A stretch of 24,000 nt of DNA, taken from positions 5,834 through 29,833 of the forward strand of contig QHZP01000117.1 of assembly GCA_003224715.1 (NCBI GenBank), given 5' to 3'. The notes beneath the pieces were generated by a model. It had not been told where the DNA came from and ran no database searches. It saw only the letters and a list, made by a program, of their open reading frames with translations. A program made the position numbers and the translations under genes. Origin of the DNA: Acidobacteriota bacterium. GTDB taxonomy: Bacteria; Acidobacteriota; Terriglobia; Versatilivoradales; Versatilivoraceae. Below, in pieces: positions 5,091 through 24,000 of the stretch (positions are counted from its first letter, which is position 1; each line of letters opens with the position of its first letter).

Positions 5091-5283
5091 TGATACTTGG
5101 TGGCGAAGAGGTTCAAACTTTGGTCAAGTTTGTTAACCTGCCGTCCCCTCACCCAGGGAGCTTTCTCAAAGCTCCCATGCCTCTCCCCTGGGGAGAGGGT
5201 GGTCCGCCGTACGGCGGACCGGGTGAGGGGTCAGCTGCTTCGGGAGGCCCCGATCCTTGGCGGTCTCAGATTGCTCACTAGCC
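5091..5283 (+). repeat. Family B GC-rich palindromic repeat, copy B2
   Basis: Contains ccctcaccc...cctctcccctggggagagggtggtccgccgtacggcggaccgggtgagggg. It is a near-identical reverse-complement copy of 16459-16646. Boundaries are approximate. Confidence 0.65.
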
Positions 5284-8613: not shown

Positions 8614-9312
8614 CTAGCGCGCTCTTCGCTCAATGCCGATATGAGTCAGCCCTTTCTGGAAGACTTTTCCCCCTCGGATTTCTGATCGACTAAGCAGAAT
8701 CTTTAACTCCTCCAGAGTATAGGCAGCCTTCACCGAATCCCTATATAGCTTCTTCATCAGACCTCGGTAGTATCTGCCAAACCAGGCCACATGAAGAGGG
8801 AAAGTCACTGCAGATGGCCTTCTGAGGTCCCTAAGCAGAATGGCGCCCGCCAGCTTGGTTACTCGCGCGATTTCATTGAGCGTAACCAGGGGATCGGCGG
8901 AATGGTGAAGCAAAGAGTTGCAGGTCACCAGGTCAAAATGGGCCGGAGGAAAGTGAATAGACTGGGCATCGTCTTTTTGAAACCTGACCCGGTCTTGAAC
9001 TCCGCTCAATTCCGCATTTTTCCTGGCCTCTTCGAGCATGGCTTCGGACAGATCAAGCCCGACGATTTGGAAGCGAGGATTCTTCAATGCGAGCTTAATG
9101 GGAATCTGTCCGGGGCCTGTCCCTACATCCAGCACCCATCCCTGCTCTACGCCCAGACCTAGAGCATGTTCCACAAAGCTATTGTCGATTTCGTCGAGAT
9201 AGGCCTGGGAGGAGGCGGAGCTGTAAGCCGCTGCTTCTTCACCACCCCCCATAATCTCCGGCTCAGGAACGCGAGGCAAGAAAAACAGTTCCTGCCGCCA
9301 CTTATTGGGCAT
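8614..9312 (-). CDS. Class I SAM-dependent methyltransferase
   Basis: SAM-binding motif VLDVGTGPGQIPIKLA, then GLDLSEAMLEEARKNA and DLVTCNSLLHH. Confidence 0.85.
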   Translation of the reverse strand: MPNKWRQELFFLPRVPEPEIMGGGEEAAAYSSASSQAYLDEIDNSFVEHALGLGVEQGWVLDVGTGPGQIPIKLALKNPRFQIVGLDLSEAMLEEARKNAELSGVQDRVRFQKDDAQSIHFPPAHFDLVTCNSLLHHSADPLVTLNEIARVTKLAGAILLRDLRRPSAVTFPLHVAWFGRYYRGLMKKLYRDSVKAAYTLEELKILLSRSEIRGGKVFQKGLTHIGIERRAR

Positions 9313-10736: not shown

Positions 10737-10742
10737 TGCCAA

Positions 10743-10776
10743 ACAAAAAACGCAGGCCACGAGGGCCTGCGTCTTT
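10743..10776. terminator. Bidirectional rho-independent terminator-like hairpin
   Basis: A perfect 9-bp stem acgcaggcc (10749-10757) / ggcctgcgt (10763-10771) with a 5-nt loop. It has an A-run on the 5' side and tctttt on the 3' side, so a U-tract is present on either strand. It lies downstream of the radical SAM gene ending at 10870. Confidence 0.55.
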
Positions 10777-10869
10777 TCCATGTCAGCAGACTAGATTCAA
10801 CAATCCCTCGCCCCAATCCTTCTCCCATTGTGACAGGTTTGACCGAGTGAGGGGCGTGCAGCCATTCTC

Positions 10870-11439
10870 CTACGGCTTTCTAACAGCCTCCAGGATCTCT
10901 TTGTCCTTTTCTAAAAGCGCAGGATTATCACTACAGCAACCACTTCCGGAAGTGGTTTGAATTACTGGGAGGCTCAGATGATGCTGCGTCGTCTTAAGCT
11001 GAACTCTCTTACCCTTGGCAAAAATCTCGTGCCGGCCCTGGGTTTTATGCCATTCGGCCAGGGTTGCAGTCTGGTGCATGTTTTCAATAATCTGCCGCCA
11101 CCCCACTCCGGTGTTGTAAGCACAGAAGGAAATCTCCCCCTCCTGGGTGCCATAGGGTATCACACACATCTCAGTGCGGCGGAAGTCGTAAGTCCACAAA
11201 TCCTGAAACCACATACCCTCCACGCATAGGACGCGCCAATCATCGTTGTCCGTGCGCGTTTTCATGCGATCGTTACGATCGCTGTCTGAACGCTCGGAAC
11301 TAGGTTTGAACAGATTCACGATCTGTGAAATCGGAAAGCCCTTGGGAGCTTTATCAGCCTTGAAGTTGCGCATGATGGAAAGAGCCAACTGAGCCGCTGT
11401 GAGAGTCCTTCCGCGAGCGGTATCGGTAATTACGGCCAC
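10870..11439 (-). CDS. C-terminal fragment of a Tes/GDGT-MAS-like (COG1964-type) radical SAM protein, separated from the N-terminal part by a frame change
   Basis: CVEGMWFQDLWTYDFRRTEMCVIPYGTQEGEISFCAYNTGVGWR matches the conserved C-terminal block that is part of the same polypeptide in MJ0619-type enzymes. It is in the -1 frame relative to 11430..12803 and overlaps it by 10 nt. Confidence 0.65.
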   Translation of the reverse strand: MAVITDTARGRTLTAAQLALSIMRNFKADKAPKGFPISQIVNLFKPSSERSDSDRNDRMKTRTDNDDWRVLCVEGMWFQDLWTYDFRRTEMCVIPYGTQEGEISFCAYNTGVGWRQIIENMHQTATLAEWHKTQGRHEIFAKGKRVQLKTTQHHLSLPVIQTTSGSGCCSDNPALLEKDKEILEAVRKP

Positions 11440-12803
11440 ATCGCGAGCGGAGCGAACTCGTGGGTTCGACGATTGACCACCAGCAACGTAAAAATGCCGC
11501 AGTTAGGATGACAGTTGCAGGCGCTCCAGCCCCAGGGCGCATCGTCTCCTTGCAGCAGGTCCATCACACTGGTGAAGGCACTGTAGGAAGAAAGAGGGAA
11601 CCAATCCCGCAGGGGTTCCCAGTCGGCATTTAACTGGGTCTTCAAGTCTTCCACCATTTGCGAGAGCGTATAACGATGGGCATAACGGGTCTGATCATCA
11701 ATATCTTCATCTCGGCCGGTGAAGGAGACAGGTTGAAAAGCAATGGTCTGGATTTTGTCGATATTGCGGATTGCGAACTCCACAATGGAACCAATACCAT
11801 CGTTGTTCACTCCGTTTACAATGGTCGTCACTAAAGTGGTTTTCATTCCCGCTTTGGCCATGTTCTCGACAGCCTGAAGCTTGACATCAAACAAATTTCC
11901 TACGCCGCGATGCCGGTTCTTCTCCTCCGAGGTGCCGTCAAACTGCAGGTAGGCTCCGTGCAGACCCGCCTCGTGAGCCTGGCGCGTAAACTCTTCGCTC
12001 TGCGCAAAACGAATCCCATTAGTAGCCGCCATCACTCGATAGAAGCCAATCTTCTTAGCATACGCCACGGCCTCGATGAAATGAGGAGAGATGGTCGGTT
12101 CGCCTCCGGAAAAGAGAACGATCACCTGGCGGCGCGGCTTGAAGGAAACGGCGCGGTCAAGGATGGCTTTGATGTCTTCAAAGCTTGGCTGATGCACGTA
12201 GCCGACCTGGTTGGCATCCATAAAACAGGGATTGCACATCATGTTGCATCGGTTGGTGAGGTCCACCGTGAGGACAGCGCCCCGGCCAAATTTGATTGTC
12301 GACGTGCCGTGCCGATGAACGTCCTTGTCTTCGGCACATTTGAAATCCCTGCCTAAGAACAGACTTTCAATACGCCGGGTGAAATGCGAGTTGGTGGATA
12401 ATACATCTTCGAAAGGACCGTGTTTGTCGCAAACCTTTCGCATGAGAACCCGGCCATTCTCCTCCACGATGTGCGCCTTGATTTCGCCAGGCTGGCCTGA
12501 GATCAGTGCCGAAATATCCATCTCCCCCTTGATAATCGCATTGCGAACTTCAGGAACACAGCGAGGACAAAGCGAGTCGGTTACTCTGGGGAATCCCAGT
12601 GTGGGAGCCGAGCGCTCATAGCTCTTGAGCATTTTTCCTGGGGCCCATTTGGGGCTGGGCAGTTCCCCTTCGGGAAGGCGCCGGTTAACCGCCTGGAGCA
12701 TCTTCCAAGCCAGATTGGCTATTCCAGAAATACAAGACGATCCGGACCAGTTCCGCAAGAAACTCTTCTCGCCTTCATTCCGGAACATATGATCAGTGTA
12801 CAT
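11430..12803 (-). CDS. N-terminal and radical SAM core fragment of a Tes/GDGT-MAS-like (COG1964-type) radical SAM protein
   Basis: RBS ggagg lies 6 nt before ATG 12803. There is a zinc-ribbon/rubredoxin-like CPRC...KVCDKHGPF, a CxxxCxxC motif CNMMCNPC (12225-12248), GGEPT, and a later Cys cluster ACNCHPNCG. It ends prematurely at 11430 relative to family members. Confidence 0.7.
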   Translation of the reverse strand: MYTDHMFRNEGEKSFLRNWSGSSCISGIANLAWKMLQAVNRRLPEGELPSPKWAPGKMLKSYERSAPTLGFPRVTDSLCPRCVPEVRNAIIKGEMDISALISGQPGEIKAHIVEENGRVLMRKVCDKHGPFEDVLSTNSHFTRRIESLFLGRDFKCAEDKDVHRHGTSTIKFGRGAVLTVDLTNRCNMMCNPCFMDANQVGYVHQPSFEDIKAILDRAVSFKPRRQVIVLFSGGEPTISPHFIEAVAYAKKIGFYRVMAATNGIRFAQSEEFTRQAHEAGLHGAYLQFDGTSEEKNRHRGVGNLFDVKLQAVENMAKAGMKTTLVTTIVNGVNNDGIGSIVEFAIRNIDKIQTIAFQPVSFTGRDEDIDDQTRYAHRYTLSQMVEDLKTQLNADWEPLRDWFPLSSYSAFTSVMDLLQGDDAPWGWSACNCHPNCGIFTLLVVNRRTHEFAPLAMWP

Positions 12804-13912: not shown

Positions 13913-14587
13913 TCAGACAGCCTTTAACTTCCATGCCACCACTTCCAACCGCCGAGAAAAGTGGAGCAAAGGATTTGTCTTGGGTAACTTCAACCCGAAA
14001 GGTTCTGTCATCGTATTAATTTCAATCTCTGCCTCGGCGGGCTGTAAGGGCCAATGATCATGATAAATATCGCCATAATAGACTCGACCGAGGCGGTCCG
14101 CGGCATACAGGCAGTATCTTTCTGTTAACCAGTGATCGATGGTTCCTTGAGCCGGGTGGCAGACATGTCCAACAGGCCGGTATGTTGCGGCAAAATTAAC
14201 GGAGGGAGCCCCAGTATGTATCCGTTTACTGTTGTAACGAATGCCGTTAGTTTCTTCCGAGACGCTGATGCTGGCGTCATAGTACGGCAGGTGGAAAGCC
14301 CATCGGGCACCGCGAACAGCCAGGCGGCTGGAGGCATCCAGACTAAAAAACCAAACGCCAGGTTTTTCACCATGGCTGACATAGGTTCGAACGTTGAGCT
14401 CTGAGAAATTGGAAACCCAGGGCAGCCAGGGAATATACCTGAGCCGGAAACCGGTCATTCGGAATGGAACGACACCAATCCAAGCCTCGCCGTCAAACGT
14501 ATCAATGTGGAGTGAAGGTGGAATGAGCGGGCGGAGCAAATCGACATGAATCGGCCAATGGATGAACAGCAGATCATGCCAGGTCAT
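13913..14587 (-). CDS. DUF2071 (YqjF-like) family protein
   Basis: MTWHDLLFIHWPIHVDLLRPLIPPSLHIDTFDGEAWIGVVPFRMTG is the typical DUF2071 N-terminus. ATG 14587 was chosen because the longer ORF to 14719 would overlap the ubiD-like gene by 65 nt. Confidence 0.7.
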   Translation of the reverse strand: MTWHDLLFIHWPIHVDLLRPLIPPSLHIDTFDGEAWIGVVPFRMTGFRLRYIPWLPWVSNFSELNVRTYVSHGEKPGVWFFSLDASSRLAVRGARWAFHLPYYDASISVSEETNGIRYNSKRIHTGAPSVNFAATYRPVGHVCHPAQGTIDHWLTERYCLYAADRLGRVYYGDIYHDHWPLQPAEAEIEINTMTEPFGLKLPKTNPLLHFSRRLEVVAWKLKAV

Positions 14588-14654
14588 GGCGATTGCCCAT
14601 CCACCACGGGACAATCTGCTTAAGTCCCGATCCGGCTCAGTCAACCTAGGGTCA

Positions 14655-16415
14655 TCAGAGTCCCGCAGGAAAGTATTGTCCCCACCGCGAATCGACCTTC
14701 TTTGCGACTGCGGGATCACAGAATAGCTCCTTTGGGTAGGCAGGCTTCATCCGGGCGTCAATGATCACGGGGCCCCGATAGCACAGGTGATGGCGCCAAA
14801 CTTCGAGGTTGGCCGCGTAAATATCCGCCGCGGGCTCAAAGCGGGTAAAGACGGACCACAGAAACAAGGACGGCGTCCTGGCGATACTGGCATCATCGCT
14901 CAGGACCAGCAAGGGCCAACCTTGAAATCCTTTCCACTGGGAGAGCCTCTCGGCTTGCTTTGGATCGTCCGAATATTTCAGTCCACCCAGCACCAGACAG
15001 CCTGGACAAAAGACTTGCACTTCGCTGACGTCACCAGGAGTCTCTCCCTGGAAGACATGCGGAAGCTGTCTGACAGGCTGACCTAGGCCCAGCAGAATTG
15101 CCTTGCTTCCCTTGTTGACCTCCGGACCACTGTAGTCCAAGGTATCCATGGAAAGATTAGAAATGACGAAAAGGTCTGTTTCCCAACGAACGCGCTGGAG
15201 AACGTGTTCGAGCAACTTGGGGAAATTTCTCAGGTCAATCGCGACGTCGGTTACCATCAGGAATTTGGTCAGCGAAAGTTGACCCTCTCCCAGGATCCTG
15301 AAGGCCGAGGCCATGGCCTCGCGCTCATACCGCTCTCGTACTACGGCGGCGGCAAGGGAATGAAAGCCTGTCTCACCATAGCTCCACAGATCTCGTACCC
15401 CGGGCATGACCAGCGGAAAAAGCGGACTGAGCAATGCCTGCAGGTAATCCCCAATGAAGAAATCTTCTTGCCGAGGTTTACCCACCACCGTGGCCGGATA
15501 AATAGCGTCACGACGATGATAGATCTTTTGCACATGAAAGACCGGATACTCGTGTTGCAGGGAATAGTAACCGTAATGATCGCCGAAGGGCCCTTCCAAA
15601 CGACGTTCCTGCGGTGGAACAAAGCCCTGCAAGACAAACTCTGATTCGGCCGGCAAGGGATGAGGGCCAAAGGAATCTCGAATCATAGGTATCCGCTCAC
15701 CGGCCAACAGGGATGCAATGACCAACTCTCCCACGTTTTCGGGCAGCGGGGATACCGCAGCTAAGAGAAGGGCAGGAGGCCCTCCCAGGAAAACAGTCAC
15801 CGGCAGCGGCTCATTGAGCTGCTCGGCCACCGAATAATGAAATCCACCTCCCTTTTGGATTTGCCAATGCATCCCCGTTGACATGGCGTCATAGCGTTGC
15901 AGCCGATAAATTCCCAGGTTATGTCTCTTGTCCCTGGGATGTTCTGTGTATACCAGAGGAAGCGTGATAAAAGGGCCTCCATCTTCCTGCCATGTGGTCA
16001 GGACGGGAAGAGCATTCAGATTAGCCGGATATTGTAAGACGTCTACGACCGGTCCATGCTTAACATGACGTGTTCCCAACTTCAGGGCCTCTAAAGCCAG
16101 ATTCCGATTTTGCCAAAACTTGGAAAACCCTGGTGGCAGAAGGGTCTCGACAAACTTGACCACCTGCTGCAGGAGTTGCAGCGGGCGAGATCCAAACGCC
16201 AGTTCAATTCTCTTGGCCGTTCCAAAAAGATTGGTAACCACCGGAAAGGCGCTCCCTTTGATATGCTTGAAGAGCAAAGCGGGTCCACTCTGATCAATCA
16301 CCCTCCGGTGAATTTCGGCTGCTTCCAAATAGGGATCCACCTCTACTTCAATCGTGGCAAGATCCTGCTCGTGGCGCAGCAGATCCAGAAATTGTCGGAG
16401 ACTATGAAGTCGCAT
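14655..16415 (-). CDS. UbiD-family (prFMN-dependent) decarboxylase, long form resembling menaquinone-biosynthesis decarboxylases
   Basis: UbiD N-terminus LRQFLDLLRHEQDLATIEVEVDPYLEAAEIHRRV..GPALLF, then GIYRLQ and FGDHYGYYS. At 586 aa it is about 100 aa longer than classical UbiD, like the SCO4490/epsilonproteobacterial type (from memory). Confidence 0.8.
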   Translation of the reverse strand: MRLHSLRQFLDLLRHEQDLATIEVEVDPYLEAAEIHRRVIDQSGPALLFKHIKGSAFPVVTNLFGTAKRIELAFGSRPLQLLQQVVKFVETLLPPGFSKFWQNRNLALEALKLGTRHVKHGPVVDVLQYPANLNALPVLTTWQEDGGPFITLPLVYTEHPRDKRHNLGIYRLQRYDAMSTGMHWQIQKGGGFHYSVAEQLNEPLPVTVFLGGPPALLLAAVSPLPENVGELVIASLLAGERIPMIRDSFGPHPLPAESEFVLQGFVPPQERRLEGPFGDHYGYYSLQHEYPVFHVQKIYHRRDAIYPATVVGKPRQEDFFIGDYLQALLSPLFPLVMPGVRDLWSYGETGFHSLAAAVVRERYEREAMASAFRILGEGQLSLTKFLMVTDVAIDLRNFPKLLEHVLQRVRWETDLFVISNLSMDTLDYSGPEVNKGSKAILLGLGQPVRQLPHVFQGETPGDVSEVQVFCPGCLVLGGLKYSDDPKQAERLSQWKGFQGWPLLVLSDDASIARTPSLFLWSVFTRFEPAADIYAANLEVWRHHLCYRGPVIIDARMKPAYPKELFCDPAVAKKVDSRWGQYFPAGL

Positions 16416-16458: not shown

Positions 16459-16646
16459 CTAGTAGCGAGCCATCTCAGATCTCCCAGCATTACGGCTCCA
16501 TCGGCCACTGACCCCTCACCCGATCCGCCGTCCGGCGGACCACCCTCTCCCAACCGGAGAGGCATGGGGGCTTTGAGAAAGCTCCCGACAACAGGTTAAC
16601 AAACTTGACCAAAGTTTGAACTTTTTCGCCCGCCAGTAACCATCAT
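16459..16646 (-). repeat. Family B GC-rich palindromic repeat, copy B3 (inverted relative to B2)
   Basis: The reverse complement aligns with 5091-5283 (ttcaaactttggtcaagtttgttaacctg...gggagctttctcaaagc...gggagagggtggtccgcc..cggcgga.cgggtgaggggtcag). It lacks the left ccctcaccc arm. Boundaries are approximate and touch the PiT stop codon. Confidence 0.65.
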
Positions 16647-17776
16647 GATAGGAAAGCATCGAGGATGAACCAACTGGTACCGGCGAGCAACCCTGCGGCA
16701 GGCAGAGTAATGACCCAGGCTTGGACCATTGAGATAACGGTTTTCCATTGCAGACTGTGACCCGAACGACAGAGACCAAGTCCGATGATGGCACCTGAAG
16801 AAACGTGGGTGGTGGAAACTGGAATCCCCCAGCGGGAAGCGAACGCAACCATAAAACTGGTAATCAGATTGGCAGAAAGCCCTTCAACAGGGCTCATGAT
16901 GGTAATTTTCTCCGCCAGGGTTTTTGTTACGCGCGAACCCCCCAGGAGACTACCCACTCCCATGGCCAGCGCGACAACAACAAACAGCAAGGAGGAATCC
17001 TGATTGAGAAAAAGTGTCAAAGTCGTGCCTAAAGCGACGATCTTCGGTGCATCGTTCAGGCCGCGAGCAAAACTGGTGAGCCCGCTGGAAAACCAATGCA
17101 GAGCGTCATCAAGCCGGAATCCTACGACGGTTGCAGAACTGGCTTGGCAATGGTCAAAGTGATCAACCACCAGGCGCATCGAAGGCATTGGCTCGTCCGT
17201 GACCGGACTGCCGGCAATCCCAACTGCTGCAGCGAGCTGCACACGCCGCGCCTCGGCACAGGCGCACCCTTTGCTCAACGGTGTGAGTGCTCGGCGGAGC
17301 GCAGGGAAGAGGATCCATAAAGTCATTAAGGCTATCAAAGGGCTGAACAGAAGCGGAACCAAGATCGTCTTCGATACTGAAGCCCACAAGATTCCATGCC
17401 ATCCGAAGGCCATCACACCAGCGCCGCATAGAGCCCCGATGATGGCGTGAGTGGTGGAAACAGGCAAGCCTGTTTTTGTCGCAAATAGCACCCATCCGAT
17501 GGCGCCCATCAGGACTGCGTTTAAAAAGAGGCTGGAAATCTGAAATCGCGAGTCGACTACTCCCCGGCTGAAAGCTGCCACCAGGCCTTGCGAAAAATAC
17601 GCAGAAACCAGCGAGCCCCCCGTTGTCCAGGCAGTACCCCAGAGAATAGCCCGTTGATAATTAGTCACGCCGCTGCCTACTAAGGTGGCGACACCCTTGG
17701 AGATGTCGTTAGAGCCATTGGCGTAAGCGAGGGCAAACACGCCAAAGAACAAACATAAGTTCAAAAGGGGAAGCAT
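16643..17776 (-). CDS. Inorganic phosphate transporter, PiT (PHO4) family
   Basis: The two PHO4 signature halves are NGSNDISKGVATLVGSG and GIPVSTTHVSSGAIIGLG / GLPVSTTHAIIGAL, and the protein is polytopic. The start is uncertain (17776, 17836 or 17878). Confidence 0.85.
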   Translation of the reverse strand: MLPLLNLCLFFGVFALAYANGSNDISKGVATLVGSGVTNYQRAILWGTAWTTGGSLVSAYFSQGLVAAFSRGVVDSRFQISSLFLNAVLMGAIGWVLFATKTGLPVSTTHAIIGALCGAGVMAFGWHGILWASVSKTILVPLLFSPLIALMTLWILFPALRRALTPLSKGCACAEARRVQLAAAVGIAGSPVTDEPMPSMRLVVDHFDHCQASSATVVGFRLDDALHWFSSGLTSFARGLNDAPKIVALGTTLTLFLNQDSSLLFVVVALAMGVGSLLGGSRVTKTLAEKITIMSPVEGLSANLITSFMVAFASRWGIPVSTTHVSSGAIIGLGLCRSGHSLQWKTVISMVQAWVITLPAAGLLAGTSWFILDAFLS

Positions 17777-17987
17777 CCTTGTCTTCTCCACAACGGTCAG
17801 AAGGGGGAAGCCTTGTCCAGTTTCTGACCTATTCATCCTCGTGCTGTTACTCTCGTTCGGTTGGCAACTTTGAATCAACTAAGAGCAGAAGCATGAGCAC
17901 GAGTACGATTCTTCATCGATTCAATTGAGAAGCCCATATATTGCAGGTTTGAGGGACAGCCTGGTACCCAAATTAGGCACCACTGAT

Positions 17988-18113
17988 CTCCCCTCACCCC
18001 CGTCCCTCCTTGGTCCCCGCTGCCCTGATGAGGGCTAGGGGGGAGTATTTCCTTTTTTGGATAACCGCCCTCTCCCACGGGGAGAGGGTGCCCGAAGGGC
18101 GGGTGAGGGGGCC
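17988..18113. repeat. Family B GC-rich palindromic repeat, copy B4
   Basis: ctcccctcaccccc...ccctctcccacggggagagggtgcccgaagggcgggtgaggggg shares the ctctccc-N4-gggagaggg and gggtgaggg modules with B1-B3. Confidence 0.6.
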
Positions 18114-18186
18114 GTTGCTTGCAGAGCGTAGATTTGGTGACACCCACATCTTCCCCAGCTGCAGGACTTGGATGGCAAGCCCCTCT

Positions 18187-20730
18187 TCAGCAGCACGACG
18201 AACTCCCAGGAGCGCAGCATGAGTACTCAATATGACTCCCGTCGGCCCCAGGCTCCAAAATAACAAATGACCCTTGATAGGGGGGATTCATTAACTTTGA
18301 AGCGGTGTCGGTGCAGACTTCAATGGGCTCATTGCGCGGGAAAAGATGACCTTCTTCATCCATGACGGCCTTTTGCGGCCCCAGATAAATGGCCCGCTGG
18401 CCCTTGAACACGCACCCTGTCGTTTTTTCGAATTTGTAGCCACGCACCGTCACTGAGTAAAATTTATAGCCTTCCACTTCCTTCCAATAGGTTTTCTTCA
18501 GTACCTGCAATCCATAAAAACCGGCTCGTTCGAGGTAGACAAGAAATTCCTCCTCGGTAAGAGCGCCAGCAATACACGCGCCCCATAACATGCGGTTCAC
18601 CCGTAAGTGGCTGGGGACAGTCTCCTCACTCACGATGTCACTGACGACAATGCGACCATGGTCTTTCAACACTCGCCACATTTCGCGAAAAACGGCTTTC
18701 TTGTCGGGAGACAAATTGATCACACAGTTAGAAGTGATGAGGTCTGCCGTTCTGCTTTCGACGGGAATTTGTTCAAGGTAACCGCAGCGGAACTCCACCA
18801 CGTCATAGCCAAGGTTATCAGCCACGGGTTGTTTGTTACGATTTGCAAGCGTGAGCATCTGATCGGTCATATCGACACCGATCACCTTTCCCGCCGGGCC
18901 CACTTTCTTGGCTGCAATAAAACAATCGATTCCGCCTCCTGAGCCAAGATCGATGCTGGTCTCACCAGGCGCGAGGCTCGCCATTGTCACGGGAGAACCA
19001 CAGCCATAAAATCGATCAATGACCTCTTGGGGGATATGGCTGATGTCTGACTGGTCGTAGTGGGTCGGACAACACAGACTCGCTTGCGGCTCCTCAGCAG
19101 CCTTGCCATAAAATTCCTGGACAACCCGGCGCGATTTTTCAATGTCGAATGCCAGCACGCAATTAGAATGAAGGGTAGCCACGGCCGTATCGCTGCGAAC
19201 GTCGATCTGATCTGTGTCTGTGCCGCAGGCCACAGCGCCATCCCCCATGGCATGAAAGATAATTGGCGCACTGAAGCCGGAACGTCGATTGAACGCCCGC
19301 TTCTTCTCACTGGCCAGGTCCAGCATGACGTCGTGAGCGATGGCCGTATAAACGTCGTAGTAAGGATCCGGGGCCAGCAGGTTGCCGCCTTGGGATTTAT
19401 CCAGACTGAAAAAGTAGCTGTGTTCGATATCACCGCCGCCTGTGATGTATTTAAAGGGATCATCTACGGGGAGCTGCTTTGACACCACTGACGCCCGTCG
19501 AAATTCTTGGGCCAGTCCTGAGTTTTGCCAGATTTCGCGAAGATTACCGTTGCTGATCATACCAGCAGCTAGCGGTTTGAAATTGGCCGTGGCGGCGGAA
19601 GGATAAACCATGCCGTCCGAATACACGCACATCGAATCCCAGAATTGATTTCCGAGGTCGTATTTCACAAAGGGCCGGCCGTTCACCCTTAACTTCATGG
19701 ATTCGATGTTATCAATGGTCACGCCCAGCGATTGAGCGCGCTGCTTGGTGGCACGCACGATACGGGTCAAGTCCTCTGTGGAGGGGAATGACTTGGGCAT
19801 TGTTTCCAGTACCCGACCACGCCGATGCATCCACATCAAATGCTGAGACTGTGCGCCCCAGTCTTTGACCAATTGGGTGATCTCGGGAATCTCCTCCAGA
19901 TTTTCTGTCATGACCACCGTGGTGAGGGAGACCGGAAATCCGAGCCGGGTGGCGCTACGAGTTCCTTGGCAAATCTGCTCAAATGTGCCGGCACCGCGCA
20001 GACGATCATTGGTTTCGGGTCTGGCGCCGTCCAGCGACACCTGAAGGCGCAGCCGGTCGCGAGAGGCGGCCTCGAGTTTCTTGAGACGCGTGTCGTGAAG
20101 CAAGGTGGCGTTGGTCAAAATGATTAGTTCCGCCTCTTTCTTCTCGGTGATGTAGTGGATCAGTTGGAAGATATCCGGGCGTGCGAACGGCTCGCCGCCC
20201 GTGAAATAGAGGCGTTCTACACCGCAATCAACTGCCTGGTCGACGATATTGAGGAGCTTGACGGTAGACAGACCGCGGTCGGCGGCGGGTGATGAGCTCA
20301 CCAGGCAGTGCGTGCAAGTCAGATTGCAGGAATTGTTGGTGTGAATCCACAATTCTCGAAGTTTCTCAAGTTTCAGGTGGGCCGAGCGTCCGCCATAGGG
20401 GAATCGCTCGATGGGTGTCGTCGAAACCACTTGAGCGCGCAGGGCGTCCCGCAGAAAGGAATGCACATGCAACCAGGCAACAGCGCTTGTCACCTGAAAG
20501 GATTCCGTGTAGCGACGCACCAATTCTCCCAAGGTGACCTTCTGATCCAGCCATCTTAAGATCTGCCCTCCCCGGCTGTCAGTGGCGATCCAATTCGGAC
20601 CTTCAGGATCGATGGCAATATGAACATCGTTCTCTTCGAGATGCCGAACGTCAGGAAGATAAAATAGTTGATCTTCTTTAAGCTCCAACATGATGTATCT
20701 TTTCTCCTTTGGTTCCCAATGAGCATTCAT
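18187..20730 (-). CDS. Fusion protein: PqqD/RRE-like domain + radical SAM core (degenerate SPASM region) + ArsM-type As(III) S-adenosylmethionine methyltransferase
   Basis: CNLTCTHC (aa 135-142, nt 20305-20328) and FTGGEPF mark the radical SAM core. The PqqD-like stretch is aa ~40-105. The ArsM domain is aa ~535-847 with [32 protein letters not shown] and C-terminal SCC..SSCC. An alternative start is ATG 20691, with aaggag upstream. Confidence 0.85.
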
Positions 20731-20769
20731 ACCAAGGTACGAACAAAAGAATATATTGAGTCGGGTGTG

Positions 20770-20795
20770 GCTCGGAATTTCTTCACACCTTCAGG
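20770..20795. repeat. Solo copy of the B1 terminal repeat motif
   Basis: gctcggaatttcttcacaccttcagg matches gctcggaattttttcacaccttctcagg at 1639-1665. It lies in the 108-nt spacer between the DUF2064 gene and the rSAM-ArsM gene. Confidence 0.4.
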
Positions 20796-20839
20796 GACTG
20801 AATTCCTGATTGGAAAATGTTTTTACGAGGGGCAGTGAG

Positions 20840-21574
20840 CTAATGCAGAAAAAGCGGAGGAGGGGGAAGCTGATTGACCCTGCGGATGTGGTCGAACATC
20901 CGTAAAATACAGCCTAGAACCGCAGTCTGATCAGGCTGAGATAGGTTAGAGTTGCGCAGATCCAGCAATAAGGCGCGAAGAGGGCCGCCAAGCCGGCAGC
21001 GACGAAGAATCGTTTGCAGGTCAAAACGATCGTCCAGATCATAACAGGCTTCAAGAATTTCCAGGCGTTCGTTCTGGCTGTCGCACTCCTTGACAAGCTG
21101 CGCAAAATCGGTGTTGGCATTCCACTCAATGTTGGAGAGAACCTGAAAATTCTCTCGCGTGACACCAAGCAGATACACGCCGCCCTTCTGATCCGGGCCC
21201 AAAATGATTGTTCCGTTTTTGAATCGCTCCCTGGCTTGACTCAGGAGTTGAACATCTAATTGAGGGCAATCGTTCCCCAAAACCAGAACGCGCTCGTAAC
21301 CCAATGCAAATAACTGTTGAATACTGTGGCAAAGTCTTTCTCCGAAGCCTCTGCCTTCCTGCGGAATGAGGCAGGCCCCAATCTTTTCAAACTCAGAGTT
21401 CTCATCAGGCGGGATTGCAAGGTATACGTCATTCAAAAAAACCTTCTGAGAAGCCTTGACCACGCGACGGGTAAACGACGCGAAAACCCTCTTCGCACTC
21501 TTTGATTGCCTCGGGGGAAACTTATTAGAAGAGTGCCGCAGGCTGGCAAAAATGAGAACCGCCGTTGAGTCCAT
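20840..21574 (-). CDS. DUF2064 / TIGR04282-like (GT-A fold, glycosyltransferase-like) protein
   Basis: RVLVLGNDCPQLDVQLLSQA...ILGPDQKGGVYLLGV...IEWNANTDF...LEACYDLDDRFDLQTIL fits the DUF2064 pattern (GtDcPqL ... GPa.DGGYyLiG ... W.t..v ... DvD...DL). The N-terminal KTRL-type motif is not recognisable. Start is ATG 21574 or TTG 21592. Confidence 0.65.
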   Translation of the reverse strand: MDSTAVLIFASLRHSSNKFPPRQSKSAKRVFASFTRRVVKASQKVFLNDVYLAIPPDENSEFEKIGACLIPQEGRGFGERLCHSIQQLFALGYERVLVLGNDCPQLDVQLLSQARERFKNGTIILGPDQKGGVYLLGVTRENFQVLSNIEWNANTDFAQLVKECDSQNERLEILEACYDLDDRFDLQTILRRCRLGGPLRALLLDLRNSNLSQPDQTAVLGCILRMFDHIRRVNQLPPPPLFLH

Positions 21575-21659
21575 GAGTGGCAATAGGTCCAACAGATTTC
21601 AAAACGATGCTTTTCGGCTTTGACGCAGATCCTAGGACGCCGTAGAAATCGCGTCTGTG

Positions 21660-21688
21660 AATATACTATTCCAAGGGCTCGAGAGCAA
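21660..21688 (-). promoter_or_regulatory. Putative sigma70-type promoter upstream of the DUF2064 gene
   Basis: The minus strand reads TTGCTC (21683-21688), 17-nt spacer, TATATT (21660-21665). Sequence pattern only. Confidence 0.3.
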
Positions 21689-21721
21689 GCATTTCGACCT
21701 TTGTCGCCCGATCTCTTTGAC

Positions 21722-22903
21722 TTATTTTTTAAAAATCGCTTTCAGTTTGTGCACAATCTCTTCGGGTTCGTTGTCGCCGAGACACTGTGGGAAAAAGACA
21801 ATAGTTCCCTGTGAAGCCAGGTTTTCGTAGGTACAGATAATCGGCTCACCTTCCTGAAGCGCATTGATCAATGCGTGGGCATCCAGGCCCGCTCTGTTGG
21901 GATCCACTTGCACATGCGCCGAAGGGACTGGCTGTCCACTTGGCAAGGGAAAAATGCGATGAGCGCATAGCCCGGAAATTTTCTCGACGCCGGCAATGAG
22001 GGTATCGATTCGTTCGTGCCAGGCTTTCAATTCTGCCTCAAAGTCGCGGGTAGCATAAAGTTCTAAAGCGGCGATGAGGCCTGCTATCTCTTCCTTTCCG
22101 ACCTTGAGACCGCGTCCAACCCCGTGATGAGGCGGTCCCGAGAGTGTCCCGTCCACAATCAAGTGCCGCCATGGCCAGGTTTCCGGAAAAACATCCATAT
22201 CTTGATGTTGTAAGGCCACCGAGAGAATCAGATCACGCCTGCCGCATAGGATCCCGCTGGCTTGTGGGCCTCCAATATGTTTTCCTCCGCTAAAGGCTAC
22301 CAGGTCGGCGCCCTGGGCGATGAATTTTCGCAGATTCTCGGCTGGGGGCAGTTCAGCCGCTGCATCGATGATGACGGGAACGTGGTTTGAATGGGCAATC
22401 TGGACGATTTGCTCCAAAGAGAGGCTCCCTTCAACCGACCCGGCTAGAAAGAAGATGGCAGCTGTCTTGTCATTGATAGCTCGTTCCACTTCATAAGGGA
22501 AAGTTGCGTAATTGAAACCTACCTCTACCACTTTGGCCCCGGCGGCTCGTAAAGCGTGATCGTAGTCATTCCGATGGACGCGTTGAATGATGACTTCATT
22601 TTTCATGCCGCGAGCGTCAGGCAAACGGTTCATCTTCAGGGGGTCCAGGCCCGCGATACAAGCTGCCATGCCTAGCGTCAGTCCAGCGGCGGCGCCGGAG
22701 GTCACATATCCGGCTTCGGCTCCTGTGAGCCTGGCGATAATTTGGCCTGCGGCCTGTTGTAAGTCTTCCATTCTGACGAATGACTCGGCTGCTTCTCGCA
22801 TGGCTTGGATCACTTCCGGAGCCATGAGCGAGCCCCCTGCCTTAGTGCTGTAGCTGCGAGCATTGATCACTCGACGCAAACCTAATTTCTGATAAAAATT
22901 CAT
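21722..22903 (-). CDS. SelA-fold (COG1921, DgaE-like) PLP-dependent enzyme
   Basis: VINARSYSTKAGGSLMAPEV, TGAEAGYVTSGAAAGL and FSGGKHIGGPQASGILCG (compare the SelA PLP-lysine motif FSGDKLLGGPQAG). It lacks the ~80-aa N-terminal tRNA-binding domain of genuine SelA. ATG 22903 has aaggag 9 nt upstream. Confidence 0.8.
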   Translation of the reverse strand: MNFYQKLGLRRVINARSYSTKAGGSLMAPEVIQAMREAAESFVRMEDLQQAAGQIIARLTGAEAGYVTSGAAAGLTLGMAACIAGLDPLKMNRLPDARGMKNEVIIQRVHRNDYDHALRAAGAKVVEVGFNYATFPYEVERAINDKTAAIFFLAGSVEGSLSLEQIVQIAHSNHVPVIIDAAAELPPAENLRKFIAQGADLVAFSGGKHIGGPQASGILCGRRDLILSVALQHQDMDVFPETWPWRHLIVDGTLSGPPHHGVGRGLKVGKEEIAGLIAALELYATRDFEAELKAWHERIDTLIAGVEKISGLCAHRIFPLPSGQPVPSAHVQVDPNRAGLDAHALINALQEGEPIICTYENLASQGTIVFFPQCLGDNEPEEIVHKLKAIFKK

Positions 22904-22948
22904 CGGTCTCACTCCTTGCCCTTCACTCACGATTGCTTTCCCACAGGC

Positions 22949-24000
22949 TCAGCGGTCGCTCGGGCTACCGGCCCGTACACTCAACAGGTATTGCTTCTCC
23001 CGCTCAGACTCGTTTTTCAGTTTTTCGTACCACTCGAGGTGGGTTGTGGCCTCCGCCGCCCGGCCCAGCGATTTGTAAACCCGCGCGAGCAGGAAATGCA
23101 CCGACTGATTGGCCGGATCCAGCTTCATCGCCTTCTCGCAATACCCGAGCGCTTCCTGCGGCCGATTCTTCAACATCTGAATTTTCGCAAGTCCTAGAAG
23201 CGCGTCAGCGTAATTCGGGTCAAATTGAAGGGCCGTGCTGTAAAGCGTCCAGGCCTTATCGAGCTTCTGGTCCAGGAGCTCCAGCTCCCCGAGCTGAAAG
23301 TAGCTCTCCGCATGGGCCGGGTGAAGTCGTAGCTCCTCTTCGTACTCGTGGCTCGCCTCCTTTCGCTCGCCAAGAGCGCGCAGCATGTTCCCAATCTGGT
23401 AATGCAGACCTGTCGCCATAGGATTGTCCTTCAGCGCCAGCCGAAACTGCTCCGCCGCCAACGCAAAATGGTCCCCCTCCGACAAGAGGTGGCCAAGCAT
23501 TTCATGCGTCAGGTAAGCGTTTGGATATTTCTGCGTCAACCTCCTCATCATTTCCCGGGCCCGGGTCATGTGGAGCCAGAAGCTCTGATAGACCACTTGT
23601 GGATTGTCAGGCTCCATCTTGAGAAGCGCCAGGTAAACCGCCTCTGCTTCATTTAGTGAACCAGACTTGATATAGAACTTTCCCAAACGAAGCCCAACCA
23701 GCCGTTTCAATTCACCGTCCACCGCCGGATCCTGCGAGCGAAAAGATTTCTCGAGCAAGGGACGGCCGCGATCGGTGTGTCCGAGCGCAAATTCGCTGAG
23801 ACCCAGGAACGCTTCGGCAGCAGCCAGATTCGGCTTCATTTCCAGCGCGCGTTCCAAAGCCGTTGCGGCCGATCTGTAGTCGCCCTTTTGGTAGTGAGCC
23901 ACCCCCAAATGCAAAAAGAGCGGGGCGGACTCGCCGTGGCTGCGCAGCAACTTCTGGTAGATCTCAATAGCCCGATCATAATTGCTCTCGGCTAGAGATT
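22949..24000 (-). CDS. Tetratricopeptide repeat protein (5' end outside window)
   Basis: Serial TPR-like 34-mers are present (YQKGDYRSAATALERALEMKPN, AEAVYLALLKMEPDN, ALGYCEKAMKLDPAN). The frame remains open upstream of the listed start to the window edge (..SLAESNYDRAIEIYQKLL..). Confidence 0.8.
   Translation of the reverse strand, partial: SLAESNYDRAIEIYQKLLRSHGESAPLFLHLGVAHYQKGDYRSAATALERALEMKPNLAAAEAFLGLSEFALGHTDRGRPLLEKSFRSQDPAVDGELKRLVGLRLGKFYIKSGSLNEAEAVYLALLKMEPDNPQVVYQSFWLHMTRAREMMRRLTQKYPNAYLTHEMLGHLLSEGDHFALAAEQFRLALKDNPMATGLHYQIGNMLRALGERKEASHEYEEELRLHPAHAESYFQLGELELLDQKLDKAWTLYSTALQFDPNYADALLGLAKIQMLKNRPQEALGYCEKAMKLDPANQSVHFLLARVYKSLGRAAEATTHLEWYEKLKNESEREKQYLLSVRAGSPSDR

What the first reader, a model, noticed from the sequence alone, without database searches (positions are those of the whole stretch)
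16643..24000. Co-directional cluster TPR / SelA-fold PLP enzyme / DUF2064 / rSAM-ArsM / PiT: candidate uncharacterised organo-metalloid pathway
Five minus-strand genes lie head-to-tail with short spacers (45, 129-147, 108 and about 410 nt; the last spacer is filled by a repeat). The DUF2064/TIGR04282 family is, from my memory of RefSeq naming, labelled 'arsenosugar biosynthesis glycosyltransferase' through co-occurrence with ArsM and the radical SAM ArsS. Here it sits directly upstream of an rSAM-ArsM fusion of a different rSAM type. PiT transporters are a classical arsenate entry route because arsenate is a phosphate analogue. A SelA-fold PLP enzyme could supply beta-elimination or replacement chemistry on an amino acid or sugar-amine. 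Together this looks like import, C-As bond formation, methylation and tailoring, but with a component set that differs from both the ArsS/ArsM and ArsL/ArsM paradigms. That the genes are functionally linked is inference from adjacency only.
Basis: inference. Interest (0 to 1): 0.75.

Follow-up and report, generated by a model that had tools for sequence, protein, structure and literature searches.

The report
Radical-SAM/arsenic-methyltransferase fusion gene module
Three of the five flagged genes (a DUF2064 transferase-like gene, a fused radical-SAM/arsenite-methyltransferase gene and a PiT-type anion transporter gene) form a module that recurs across many bacterial phyla, and it looks like an untested variant of the known arsenic-sugar pathway; the other two genes are just neighbours.

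Summary
The five minus-strand genes and their domain assignments are real. Comparative genomics supports only part of the proposed pathway.

**Conserved core.** The core is DUF2064 (20840-21574), an 834-aa fusion (18187-20691) and PiT (16643-17776). The fusion has an RRE-like domain, a radical SAM/SPASM half and a complete ArsM.

**Neighbourhood evidence.** Among about 45 full-length fusion loci from at least 8 phyla:
- 12 carry DUF2064 and 13-14 carry PiT.
- 8-11 each carry a TIGR04283 glycosyltransferase, a MerA-like FAD disulfide reductase, DedA or DUF547.

This is the accessory set found around canonical ArsS + ArsM loci. ArsS itself never accompanies the fusion.

**PiT.** Four of its roughly 50%-identical relatives were sampled. 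Two sit beside the fusion (one with ArsR, one with an ArsC-like phosphatase) and one sits between ArsM and ArsS.

**Not part of the module.** The SelA-like and TPR genes are linked to the fusion only in this strain. Their homologues lie in unrelated contexts.

**Reading.** This is a new variant of the ArsM/ArsS organoarsenical module, with a CteB-like radical SAM domain fused to ArsM. The chemistry is inferred, not shown. I found no paper describing the family.

The parts
16643..17776 (-). PiT-family anion transporter, 377 aa (longest ORF reaches 17878). Member of a clade linked to the rSAM-ArsM fusion and to ArsM/ArsS.
   Evidence: PF01384 scores 229 bits. PitA scores 75.6 bits (cutoff 800) and CysP 73.5 bits (cutoff 400), so the substrate cannot be assigned. 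Homologues of 377 aa cover the protein fully. PiT is adjacent to the fusion in 13 of 44 loci, plus L095.
17990..18110 (.). Palindromic GC-rich insertion (REP/MITE-like) inside the 410-nt fusion/PiT spacer. In other genomes this spacer is about 4-65 nt.
   Evidence: There is no Rfam match. No terminator-like site was found in the spacer.
18187..20691 (-). Fusion protein, 834 aa: RRE/PqqD-like domain + radical SAM/SPASM-like half + complete ArsM + C-terminal tri-cysteine tail. The stop codon is TGA at 18187-18189.
20392..20691 (-). Fusion residues 1-100: PqqD/RRE-like winged-helix domain.
   Evidence: PF05402 scores 22 bits, just below its cutoff of 23.4. Some homologues pass the cutoff. In the model, with pLDDT about 90, this region superposes with the RRE domain of CteB.
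19252..20376 (-). Fusion residues about 106-480: radical SAM core (C122-x3-C126-x2-C129, GGEP motif) plus a degenerate SPASM/twitch region.
   Evidence: The CX3CX2C motif is present in 120 of 120 homologues; only 10 of 120 keep the CxxCx5C SPASM motif. The best NCBIfam hit is the Rv1681 family at 141.7 bits (cutoff 380); ArsS scores 64.8 bits (cutoff 300). The best PDB folds are CteB, SuiB, SkfB and anSME.
18253..19161 (-). Fusion residues 511-813: full ArsM (all three domains) with the As(III)-binding cysteines (LCCP 540/541, YGCGSP 564, SNCV 656, LWGAC 706).
   Evidence: It aligns to CrArsM 5evj (E = 1e-37), human AS3MT 8xt7 and CmArsM 4fr0 through the C-terminal domain. The cysteines are invariant in alignment A1 and present in 113-120 of 120 homologues.
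18190..18234 (-). Fusion residues 820-834: C-terminal C-x-P-G-x(n)-C-C tail.
   Evidence: The tail is present in 108 of 120 homologues. It resembles the As(III)-binding C-terminal RCCLKC motif described for ArsL (PMC13598754). That resemblance is analogy only.
20840..21574 (-). Divergent DUF2064 (MobA/CofC-like transferase fold), 244 aa. It retains the GxDxP and GGxYLLG motifs but lacks the N-terminal P-x-x-G-x-x-K-T-R-L loop.
   Evidence: PF09837 scores 76 bits. TIGR04282 scores 95.8 bits, below its cutoff of 134. Alignments A2 and A3 show the same variant N- and C-termini in the 47%-identical L095 protein, which also sits directly upstream of a fusion gene.
21722..22903 (-). SelA-fold/DgaE-like PLP enzyme, 393 aa. 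Adjacent gene, judged not part of the module.
   Evidence: No homologue occurs within 10 kb of any other fusion locus.
22949..24000 (-). TPR protein, truncated by the window end (391 aa in the same strain). Adjacent gene, judged not part of the module.
   Evidence: It is absent from the other fusion loci.

Best explanation
The finding contains a three-gene organoarsenical module: DUF2064, an rSAM-ArsM fusion and PiT. It is flanked upstream by two unrelated genes (SelA-like PLP enzyme, TPR). The module is a variant of the ArsM/ArsS 'arsenosugar-type' system.

**Shown.**
- The fusion carries an intact radical SAM cluster motif and a complete ArsM with all As(III)-binding cysteines.
- Across phyla, fusion genes are surrounded by the accessory genes that surround canonical ArsS + ArsM, and never by ArsS.

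**Inferred mechanism.**
1. Arsenate enters through PiT, or an arsenical oxyanion leaves through it, and is reduced to As(III).
2. The ArsM domain binds As(III) on its cysteines and methylates it with SAM to methylated As(III).
3. The N-terminal radical SAM domain cleaves a second SAM reductively. The resulting carbon radical, most likely 5'-deoxyadenosyl as in ArsS, adds to the As(III) centre and forms a further C-As bond.
4. The cysteine-rich tail may hand arsenic between the two sites.
5. The DUF2064 transferase-like protein tailors or processes the product. In other genomes a TIGR04283 GT2, DUF547, DedA and a dedicated FAD disulfide reductase or thioredoxin system contribute, the last probably to keep the catalytic cysteines reduced.
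For: 1. **Domains and motifs.** CX3CX2C, YGCGSP and SNCV are present in 120 of 120 homologues, LWGxC in 113 of 120 and the tri-cysteine tail in 108 of 120. The ArsM half aligns to solved ArsM/AS3MT structures along their whole length.
2. **Synteny.** In 44 full-length fusion loci, DUF2064 occurs in 12, PiT in 13, DedA/VTT in 11, MerA-like FAD reductase in 9, DUF547 in 9 and GT2 in 8. ArsS occurs in none.
3. **Full operon elsewhere.** L016 (Nitrospirota) reads DedA, 147-aa ORF, FAD reductase, DUF547, GT2, fusion, DUF2064, PiT. Its GT2 passes TIGR04283 (232.7 bits, cutoff 182) and its DUF2064 passes TIGR04282 (189.6 bits, cutoff 134).
4. **Same accessories in canonical loci.** ArsS + stand-alone ArsM loci L052, L067 and L070 carry the same accessory genes (GT2, FAD reductase, DedA, DUF547, with DUF2064 or PiT); L080 carries GT2 and DUF2064, and L038 carries DUF2064 with ArsR and thioredoxin-like/DsbD genes.
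5. **Parallel architectures.** L038 reads ArsR, ArsM (63% identical to the fusion's ArsM half), ArsS, DUF2064, thioredoxin-like, DsbD. L090 reads ArsR, fusion, DUF2064, PiT, thioredoxin-like, DsbD.
6. **Arsenic markers beside the fusion.** ArsR occurs in L090 and an LMW-phosphatase of ArsC type in L093.
7. **PiT clade.** Six of the top 120 PiT hits share a contig length with a fusion hit. Three of four independently sampled PiT relatives sit beside the fusion or between ArsM and a bona fide ArsS (TIGR04167, 442 bits).
8. **Close relatives.** L095 (74% identity) has the same DUF2064, fusion, PiT trio. L081 (80%) has fusion then PiT. L094 (77%) has a DUF2064::GT2 fusion, FAD reductase, DedA and the fusion.
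9. **Rosetta-stone evidence.** The radical SAM half defines a small family: 152 representatives at E <= 1e-30 among 1.84 billion. Members occur as rSAM-MT, as rSAM-MT-DUF5714 and, in the opposite order, as MT-rSAM.
10. **Precedent chemistry.** ArsS adds 5'-deoxyadenosyl to DMAs(III). ArsL adds the ACP radical to As(III) (PMC13598754; PMC12159101).
Against: - There are no expression, transport or product data; the chemistry is inference.
- About 40% of fusion loci, including relatives of 70-73% identity (L001, L082, L084), have no accessory gene within 10 kb. The fusion may therefore act alone, or the partners may be optional.
- In this window the GT2, DUF547, FAD reductase, DedA, ArsR and ArsC genes are absent.
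- The window's DUF2064 falls below the TIGR04282 cutoff and lacks the putative nucleotide-binding K-T-R-L loop.
- The radical SAM half is not ArsS-like. It has the architecture of peptide-modifying maturases, so the radical chemistry could be different.
- The ArsM half is just under the NF008823 cutoff (248.9 against 263).
- A 410-nt spacer with an inserted palindromic element separates the fusion from PiT here, so co-transcription is uncertain.
- The ArsM half of the structure model has low confidence.
Confidence: 0.6

Rival explanations
1. All five genes (TPR, SelA-fold PLP enzyme, DUF2064, fusion, PiT) form one pathway. The PLP enzyme would supply elimination or replacement chemistry on an amino-acid or amino-sugar moiety of the arsenical.
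For: The genes are co-directional, with spacers of 45 and 147 nt. The same order is kept on three other contigs, but these come from the same strain at 100% protein identity.
Against: No SelA-like or TPR homologue lies within 10 kb of any other fusion locus. This includes relatives of 74-80% identity. SelA-like homologues of 78% and 63% identity sit in unrelated contexts: aldo-keto reductase and Tricorn-like genes in one, phosphotriesterase-family and GH20 genes in the other. The family has more than 6,800 close members, far more widespread than the fusion.
Confidence: 0.05
2. The fusion is a peptide (RiPP-type) maturase. The RRE-like domain binds a precursor peptide, the rSAM/SPASM half crosslinks it and the methyltransferase methylates it. 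Arsenic is not the substrate.
For: The N-terminal half superposes on the sactipeptide and streptide maturases CteB, SuiB and SkfB, including their RRE domain (TM-score 0.72-0.74 on the target). There is a weak PqqD hit.
Against: No conserved same-strand small ORF lies next to the fusions. The methyltransferase keeps every As(III)-binding cysteine of ArsM and ArsM's C-terminal domain. The neighbours are arsenic-linked (ArsR, ArsC-like, TIGR04282, TIGR04283). The SPASM cysteine motif is lost in 110 of 120 members.
Confidence: 0.08
3. The module acts on another metalloid or chalcogen (Sb, Se, Te), or is a general thiol-reactive metal stress system, rather than on arsenic specifically.
For: ArsM-family models in NCBIfam include several selenoprotein fusions of unknown substrate. 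One PiT relative sits in a mer operon next to a MerA-like reductase. The FAD reductase partner scores second-best to MerA.
Against: ArsR and an ArsC-type phosphatase flank the fusion in two loci. The four cysteines are those that bind As(III) in solved ArsM structures. PiT carriers transport tetrahedral oxyanions of the phosphate/arsenate type (established knowledge of PitA).
Confidence: 0.12
4. The fusion is a self-sufficient detoxifying arsenite methyltransferase. Its radical SAM half has an accessory role, for example reductive regeneration or SAM salvage. DUF2064 and PiT are incidental neighbours.
For: About 40% of fusion loci have no accessory genes nearby, including Terriglobia relatives.
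Against: DUF2064 and PiT adjacency recurs in Acidobacteriota, Nitrospirota, Gemmatimonadota, Wallbacteria and others. The radical SAM and methyltransferase halves are fused in both orders, which argues for coupled catalysis. The rSAM catalytic motifs are invariant.
Confidence: 0.12

Closest known systems
ArsM + ArsS arsenosugar system (Synechocystis type; NCBIfam TIGR04167 ArsS, NF038099 ArsM, TIGR04282, TIGR04283)
   Same: It pairs an ArsM with a radical SAM enzyme. Its accessory gene set was observed here in both kinds of locus: TIGR04282 DUF2064, TIGR04283 GT2, DUF547, MerA-like FAD reductase, DedA, PiT, ArsR and thioredoxin/DsbD. The ArsM carries a cysteine-rich C-terminus.
   Different: The radical SAM part is not ArsS: TIGR04167 scores 64.8 bits against a cutoff of 300, and there is no DUF3641 domain. 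It is an RRE + rSAM + SPASM-like module fused to the N-terminus of ArsM. ArsS is absent from all 44 fusion loci. The window's DUF2064 is below the family cutoff, and the window lacks GT2, DUF547, the reductase and DedA.
ArsL + ArsM arsinothricin system (arsQML, Burkholderia gladioli)
   Same: A radical SAM enzyme forms a C-As bond on As(III) and an ArsM methylates it. A C-terminal multi-cysteine motif binds As(III) in ArsL (PMC13598754).
   Different: No ArsL-type family appears among the best 25 radical SAM matches. There is no MFS ArsQ permease; a PiT carrier is present instead. The proteins are fused. The NF040538 ArsM model scores 211.7 bits against a cutoff of 500.
CteB / SuiB / SkfB RRE-containing rSAM-SPASM peptide maturases
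   Same: The overall fold of residues 1-480, including the N-terminal RRE-like domain.
   Different: There is no precursor peptide gene. The SPASM cysteines are mostly lost. Sequence identity is 14-17%. The module is fused to an arsenite methyltransferase.
Stand-alone detoxifying ArsM under ArsR control (the Chloroflexota and archaeal loci L044-L078)
   Same: The methyltransferase core and the As(III)-binding cysteines (41-52% identity over the core).
   Different: Those loci have ArsR and sometimes ArsC, but no radical SAM partner and no DUF2064, GT2 or PiT set.
PitA-type phosphate/arsenate carriers
   Same: The PF01384 fold, with both ND-containing signature segments present.
   Different: It is about 377 aa. 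It scores far below the PitA and CysP equivalog cutoffs. It belongs to a clade that is syntenic with ArsM-containing genes.

Membership tests
ArsM, As(III) SAM methyltransferase (NCBIfam NF008823; PDB 4FR0/5EVJ/8XT7) | HMM score at or above the curated cutoff | tested here: not met
   248.9 bits against a cutoff of 263. This is a narrow miss. L038's stand-alone ArsS-linked ArsM also misses, at 252.5 bits.
ArsM, As(III) SAM methyltransferase (NCBIfam NF008823; PDB 4FR0/5EVJ/8XT7) | Four conserved As(III)-binding or catalytic cysteines (CmArsM C44, C72, C174, C224 equivalents) and the SAM-binding DLGSGxG motif | tested here: met
   LCCP, YGCGSP, SNCV and LWGAC align with the ArsM cysteines. They are present in 113-120 of 120 homologues.
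ArsM, As(III) SAM methyltransferase (NCBIfam NF008823; PDB 4FR0/5EVJ/8XT7) | Presence of the ArsM C-terminal domain | tested here: met
   The alignment to 5evj and 8xt7 continues to query residues 803-813.
ArsM, As(III) SAM methyltransferase (NCBIfam NF008823; PDB 4FR0/5EVJ/8XT7) | Methylation of As(III) in vitro or in vivo | not testable with these tools
   This requires an enzyme assay.
ArsS, arsenosugar radical SAM enzyme (TIGR04167) | HMM score at or above 300 bits over the full model, including the DUF3641 C-terminal domain | tested here: not met
   64.8 bits, matching model positions 2-151 of 303 only. There is no PF12345 hit. The positive control, the L092 rSAM, scores 442 bits.
ArsS, arsenosugar radical SAM enzyme (TIGR04167) | Genomic association with ArsM, TIGR04282 and TIGR04283 | tested here: met
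   This holds for the fusion family as a whole. In this window only a sub-threshold DUF2064 is present.
ArsS, arsenosugar radical SAM enzyme (TIGR04167) | 5'-deoxyadenosylation of DMAs(III) | not testable with these tools
   This requires an assay, with 5'-dA versus MTA as the diagnostic co-product.
ArsL/ArsM arsinothricin cluster (arsQML) | ArsL-type radical SAM enzyme plus an adjacent MFS permease ArsQ | tested here: not met
   No ArsL family appears among the 25 best radical SAM matches. The neighbouring transporter is PiT, not MFS.
TIGR04282 (DUF2064, 'arsenosugar biosynthesis glycosyltransferase') | HMM score at or above 134 bits | tested here: not met
   The window protein scores 95.8 bits. 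The fusion-linked proteins of L016 and L004 score 189.6 and 200.3 bits. Pfam DUF2064 is met at 76 bits against a cutoff of 25.8.
TIGR04282 (DUF2064, 'arsenosugar biosynthesis glycosyltransferase') | N-terminal F-A-K-x-P-x-x-G-x-x-K-T-R-L loop of the MobA/CofC-like fold | tested here: not met
   It is replaced by ASLRHSSNKF. The same variant occurs in the 47%-identical L095 protein.
PiT / PHO4 transporter family (PF01384) | Pfam gathering score over the full-length model | tested here: met
   229 bits against a cutoff of 33.7, covering model positions 1-350 of 350.
PitA phosphate transporter or CysP sulfate permease equivalogs | NCBIfam equivalog cutoffs | tested here: not met
   PitA scores 75.6 bits (cutoff 800) and CysP 73.5 bits (cutoff 400).
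SelA (TIGR00474) / DgaE (TIGR01437, NF047797) | Curated HMM cutoffs | tested here: not met
   SelA scores 66.4 bits (cutoff 267.9). The DgaE family scores 249.1 bits (cutoff 385.3). DgaE itself scores 248.2 bits (cutoff 600). Only the Pfam SelA fold domain passes, at 54.8 bits against 22.8.
RRE-dependent rSAM/SPASM RiPP maturases (CteB, SuiB) | Fold similarity including the RRE domain | tested here: met
   TM-score 0.72-0.74 (target-normalised) to 5wgg/5why over about 480 columns. The N-terminal half of the model has pLDDT about 90.
RRE-dependent rSAM/SPASM RiPP maturases (CteB, SuiB) | Adjacent precursor peptide gene and the complete seven-cysteine SPASM motif | tested here: not met
   No conserved same-strand small ORF was found. 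The CxxCx5C motif is kept in only 10 of 120 family members and not in the window protein.

The most novel reading that the evidence does not exclude
The CteB-like RRE/rSAM half does not copy ArsS chemistry. It would then be a third class of C-As bond-forming radical SAM enzyme. One version is that it installs a carbon group other than 5'-deoxyadenosyl or 3-amino-3-carboxypropyl. Another is that it acts on arsenic held by a peptide, for instance the enzyme's own tri-cysteine tail docked on the RRE-like domain. Either would yield a previously unknown organoarsenical made by many uncultured soil and groundwater phyla.
Probability: 0.15. Interest if true: 0.9.

Novelty: new variant of a known kind. 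Interest (0 to 1): 0.62.

Why it matters
Only two radical SAM routes to carbon-arsenic bonds are known: ArsS for arsenosugars and ArsL for arsinothricin.

The fusion family has these properties:
- It is large: 1,340 hits at E <= 1e-10 among the candidates scored.
- Full-length members share 53-80% identity across Acidobacteriota, Nitrospirota, Omnitrophota, Elusimicrobiota, Gemmatimonadota, Planctomycetota and others.
- Databases name it only 'methyltransferase domain-containing protein'.
- It occupies the place of ArsS + ArsM in a conserved cassette.

If it makes an organoarsenical, three things follow:
- Complex arsenic biosynthesis would extend to abundant uncultured soil and groundwater bacteria.
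- A single polypeptide would be available for testing how methylation and radical alkylation of arsenic are coupled.
- The unexplained accessory genes (DUF2064, DUF547, DedA, MerA-like reductase, PiT) would gain a testable context.

Tried and rejected
- **Rfam scan of the whole window:** no match, so there is no riboswitch or known RNA in the spacers.
- **Tandem repeats:** none in the fusion/PiT spacer. The 'repeat' is a palindromic element.
- **Promoter and terminator scans:** counts were at or below shuffle expectation, which is uninformative.
- **The palindromic hairpin pattern:** not found in any fetched locus.
- **Literature searches:** queries for rSAM-ArsM fusions, TIGR04282/TIGR04283/DUF2064 and arsenosugar gene clusters found no description of this family. 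Subscription-only papers were not searchable.
- **L081's 202-aa ORF:** I first counted it as DUF2064 from a BLAST cluster. Pfam and NCBIfam show no DUF2064 domain, so I dropped it.
- **Conserved small ORFs near the fusions:** only antisense shadows of known genes were found.
- **Structure prediction of the ArsM half:** low confidence with a 20-sequence alignment. No inference was drawn about inter-domain geometry.
- **Selenocysteine read-through of the TGA stop after ...SSSCC:** rejected, because homologues end at the same position.

Full report
**Observation.** The region 16643-24000 carries five minus-strand ORFs.

- A PiT/PHO4 transporter: PF01384, 229 bits.
- A large protein with a weak PqqD-like N-terminus, a Radical_SAM domain, a marginal SPASM hit and an ArsM-type methyltransferase.
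- A DUF2064 protein: PF09837, 76 bits.
- A SelA-fold PLP enzyme.
- A TPR protein.

Homologue lengths and gene calls on same-strain contigs fix the likely starts:
- Fusion 18187-20691 (834 aa).
- PiT 16643-17776 (377 aa).
- DUF2064 20840-21574 (244 aa).
- SelA-like 21722-22903 (393 aa).

Three amendments are needed:
- The TPR gene runs off the window. It is 391 aa in the same strain, and the frame is open to base 23998.
- The minus-strand run begins at 8614, so co-directionality is not special to these five genes.
- The 410-nt spacer holds an imperfect palindromic GC-rich element (17990-18110, hairpin 18068-18088) rather than a tandem repeat. A similar hairpin lies at 5179-5199.

The organism is an uncultured Acidobacteria bacterium. 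This follows from the source name of the identical SelA-like protein, and the closest genomic relative of the fusion is a Terriglobia MAG at 70% identity.

**The fusion protein.** It is the informative gene.

*ArsM half.* Residues 511-813 align with solved arsenite methyltransferases along their entire length, including the C-terminal domain: Chlamydomonas ArsM 5evj (E = 1e-37), human AS3MT 8xt7 and Cyanidioschyzon ArsM 4fr0. The As(III)-binding cysteines are present as LCCP, YGCGSP, SNCV and LWGAC. They are invariant in a 20-sequence alignment and present in 113-120 of 120 homologues.

*Tail.* The protein ends in a C-x-P-G-x(n)-C-C tail, found in 108 of 120 homologues. This is reminiscent of the C-terminal cysteine motif that binds As(III) in ArsL (PMC13598754).

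*Radical SAM half.*
- It has an invariant CX3CX2C and GGEP motif.
- It is not ArsS. TIGR04167 scores 64.8 bits against a cutoff of 300, covers only half of the model, and there is no DUF3641 domain.
- No ArsL-type model appears among the best 25 radical SAM matches.
- Its best sequence match is the uncharacterised Rv1681 family, at 141.7 bits against a cutoff of 380.

*Structure.* An AlphaFold model is confident for residues 1-470 (pLDDT about 90). It superposes best on the RRE-containing peptide maturases CteB, SuiB and SkfB and on anSME (TM-score 0.72-0.74 to CteB). Most family members, including this one, have lost the CxxCx5C SPASM motif.

**The family is large and unnamed.** There were 1,340 hits at E <= 1e-10 among the candidates scored.
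- Full-length members of 53-80% identity occur in Acidobacteriota, Nitrospirota, Nitrospinota, Omnitrophota, Elusimicrobiota, Gemmatimonadota, Planctomycetota (Scalindua), Latescibacterota and Wallbacteria.
- Source names are generic.
- A search with the radical SAM half alone against 1.84 billion representatives found only 152 proteins at E <= 1e-30.
- These occur as rSAM-methyltransferase fusions, as rSAM-methyltransferase-DUF5714 fusions of about 1,000-1,080 aa, and as methyltransferase-rSAM fusions in the opposite order. Shorter rSAM-only sequences also occur; many of these are fragments, so true stand-alone forms cannot be counted.
- Fusion in both orders is classical evidence that the two activities work together.

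**Neighbourhoods.** I fetched 80 genomic loci with an alignment of the fusion, plus further contigs by exact protein look-up, and screened them with tblastn.

| Neighbour within 10 kb | Loci out of 44 full-length fusion loci |
|---|---|
| DUF2064 | 12 |
| PiT | 13 |
| DedA/VTT | 11 |
| MerA-like FAD disulfide reductase (NF004991) | 9 |
| DUF547 | 9 |
| Family-2 glycosyltransferase | 8 |
| ArsS | 0 |

- SelA-like, TPR, UbiD and DUF2071 appear only in the window's own strain.
- A Nitrospirota contig (L016) has the full operon: DedA, 147-aa ORF, FAD reductase, DUF547, GT2, fusion, DUF2064, PiT. Its GT2 and DUF2064 pass the curated cutoffs of TIGR04283 and TIGR04282, which NCBIfam names 'arsenosugar biosynthesis glycosyltransferases'.
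- Loci with a stand-alone ArsM next to a bona fide ArsS carry the same accessory genes: most of the set in L052, L067 and L070, and GT2 or DUF2064 in L080 and L038.
- L038 reads ArsR, ArsM, ArsS, DUF2064, thioredoxin-like, DsbD. L090 reads ArsR, fusion, DUF2064, PiT, thioredoxin-like, DsbD.
- The fusion therefore takes the place of ArsS + ArsM in a conserved cassette.

**The PiT gene.**
- Its NCBIfam scores are far below the PitA and CysP cutoffs.
- I sampled four further relatives of about 50% identity on long contigs, without knowing their context.
  - Two lie directly downstream of a fusion: one with ArsR upstream, one followed by an ArsC-type low-molecular-weight phosphatase.
  - One lies between an ArsM and a bona fide ArsS (442 bits).
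  - One lies in a mercury-resistance operon next to a MerA-like reductase.
- This PiT clade is therefore a dedicated metalloid-associated component. Whether it imports arsenate or exports a product is not resolved.

**The other two genes.**
- The SelA-like protein belongs to a very common Acidobacterial family, with more than 6,800 hits.
- Homologues of 78% and 63% identity sit in unrelated neighbourhoods.
- Relatives whose fusion is 74-80% identical lack it:
  - L095 has the DUF2064, fusion, PiT trio behind a divergently oriented TonB-dependent receptor.
  - L081 has Omp85, a 99-aa ORF, the fusion and PiT.
  - L094 has a DUF2064::GT2 fusion, FAD reductase, DedA and the fusion.
- In the window's strain the TPR gene is preceded by another TPR gene and an outer-membrane beta-barrel gene.
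- I conclude that the SelA-like and TPR genes are neighbours, not pathway members.

**Caveats for this window.**
- Its DUF2064 protein is below the TIGR04282 cutoff (95.8 bits against 134).
- It lacks the N-terminal P-x-x-G-x-x-K-T-R-L loop of the MobA/CofC-like fold.
- The same variant N- and C-termini occur in the 47%-identical L095 protein, also directly upstream of a fusion. This looks like a maintained subfamily rather than decay.
- GT2, DUF547, the reductase, DedA, ArsR and ArsC are not in the 24-kb window.
- About 40% of fusion loci, including Terriglobia relatives of 70-73% identity, have none of the accessory genes within 10 kb.
- No conserved precursor-peptide-like ORF accompanies the fusions. 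This weighs against a RiPP function despite the fold.

**Mechanism (inferred).**
1. As(III) is bound by the ArsM cysteines and methylated with SAM.
2. The radical SAM half reductively cleaves a second SAM. The carbon radical adds to the trivalent arsenic, as shown for ArsS (5'-deoxyadenosyl onto DMAs(III)) and ArsL (aminocarboxypropyl onto As(III)) (PMC13598754, PMC12159101).
3. The cysteine tail may shuttle arsenic between the sites.
4. DUF2064 tailors the product, helped elsewhere by GT2, DUF547 and DedA.
5. The disulfide reductase or thioredoxin partners would re-reduce the catalytic cysteines.
6. PiT moves arsenate or an arsenical oxyanion.

Only the domain content, the motif conservation and the gene linkage are shown. 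Every chemical step is inference.

**Comparison and novelty.** The closest known system is the ArsM/ArsS arsenosugar module.
- This system shares the ArsM and the accessory cassette.
- It fails ArsS membership, and it differs by the CteB-like radical SAM architecture and the fusion.
- I found no paper describing it in the searchable open-access library.
- I rate it a new variant of a known kind. It is of real interest to arsenic biochemistry and directly testable with one recombinant protein.

Noticed in passing
window 10870-12803 (-): Two ORFs, 11430-12803 (457 aa) and 10870-11439 (189 aa), overlap by 10 nt. Together they match the NCBIfam tetraether lipid synthase Tes model NF045702: positions 2-352 at 246 bits and positions 381-483 at 38 bits, against a cutoff of 450. 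This looks like a Tes-like radical SAM gene split by a frameshift, an assembly error or a genuine split. It is notable in an Acidobacterium, because Tes homologues are candidates for membrane-spanning (brGDGT-type) lipid synthesis. LpxD (9669-10781) follows it.
   Followed up: partly
window 17990-18110 and 5179-5199: A GC-rich palindromic element is inserted in the fusion/PiT spacer. It has perfect 10-nt arms, a central hairpin CCCTCTCCCCGTGGGAGAGGG and a fold z-score of -2.5. A related hairpin lies at 5179-5199. It is probably a REP/MITE-like repeat of this genome. It was not found in any fetched locus.
   Followed up: partly
window 14655-16415 (-) and 13913-14719 (-): The UbiD-family decarboxylase scores 495.4 bits against the 495.9-bit cutoff of the futalosine-pathway menaquinone decarboxylase model TIGR03701. 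It carries an extra 145 aa or so at the C-terminus. The next gene, DUF2071, overlaps it by 65 nt at its longest ORF.
   Followed up: no
proteins P0369, P0392, P0396, P0413: A sister architecture of about 1,000-1,080 aa adds a C-terminal DUF5714 domain to the rSAM-methyltransferase fusion. P0416 and P0422 (about 705-711 aa) have the reverse order, methyltransferase then rSAM/SPASM. Radical SAM modules that end the protein (stand-alone P0381, and MT-rSAM forms P0416, P0422, P0455) finish in an H/N-C motif. This resembles the invariant HSNCVL at the domain junction of the window protein.
   Followed up: partly
L091: A PiT relative of 53% identity sits in a mercury-resistance operon (MerR, MerT, MerC), directly after a MerA-like reductase and before a GT87/MptA-family membrane glycosyltransferase. 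This suggests the PiT clade is linked to metal(loid) stress more broadly than to arsenic alone.
   Followed up: no
L094:1104-2222: In a relative whose fusion is 77% identical, DUF2064 and the family-2 glycosyltransferase are themselves fused into one 372-aa protein. This supports the idea that these two accessory enzymes act together.
   Followed up: no
L029-L037, L042 (Desulfobacterota clade, 32-36% identity): The more distant fusion clade mostly lacks the accessory cassette. It has its own recurrent gene of about 231 aa, found 0.3-4.4 kb downstream in L030, L031 and L033. Its role may differ from that of the Acidobacteria/Nitrospirota clade.
   Followed up: no
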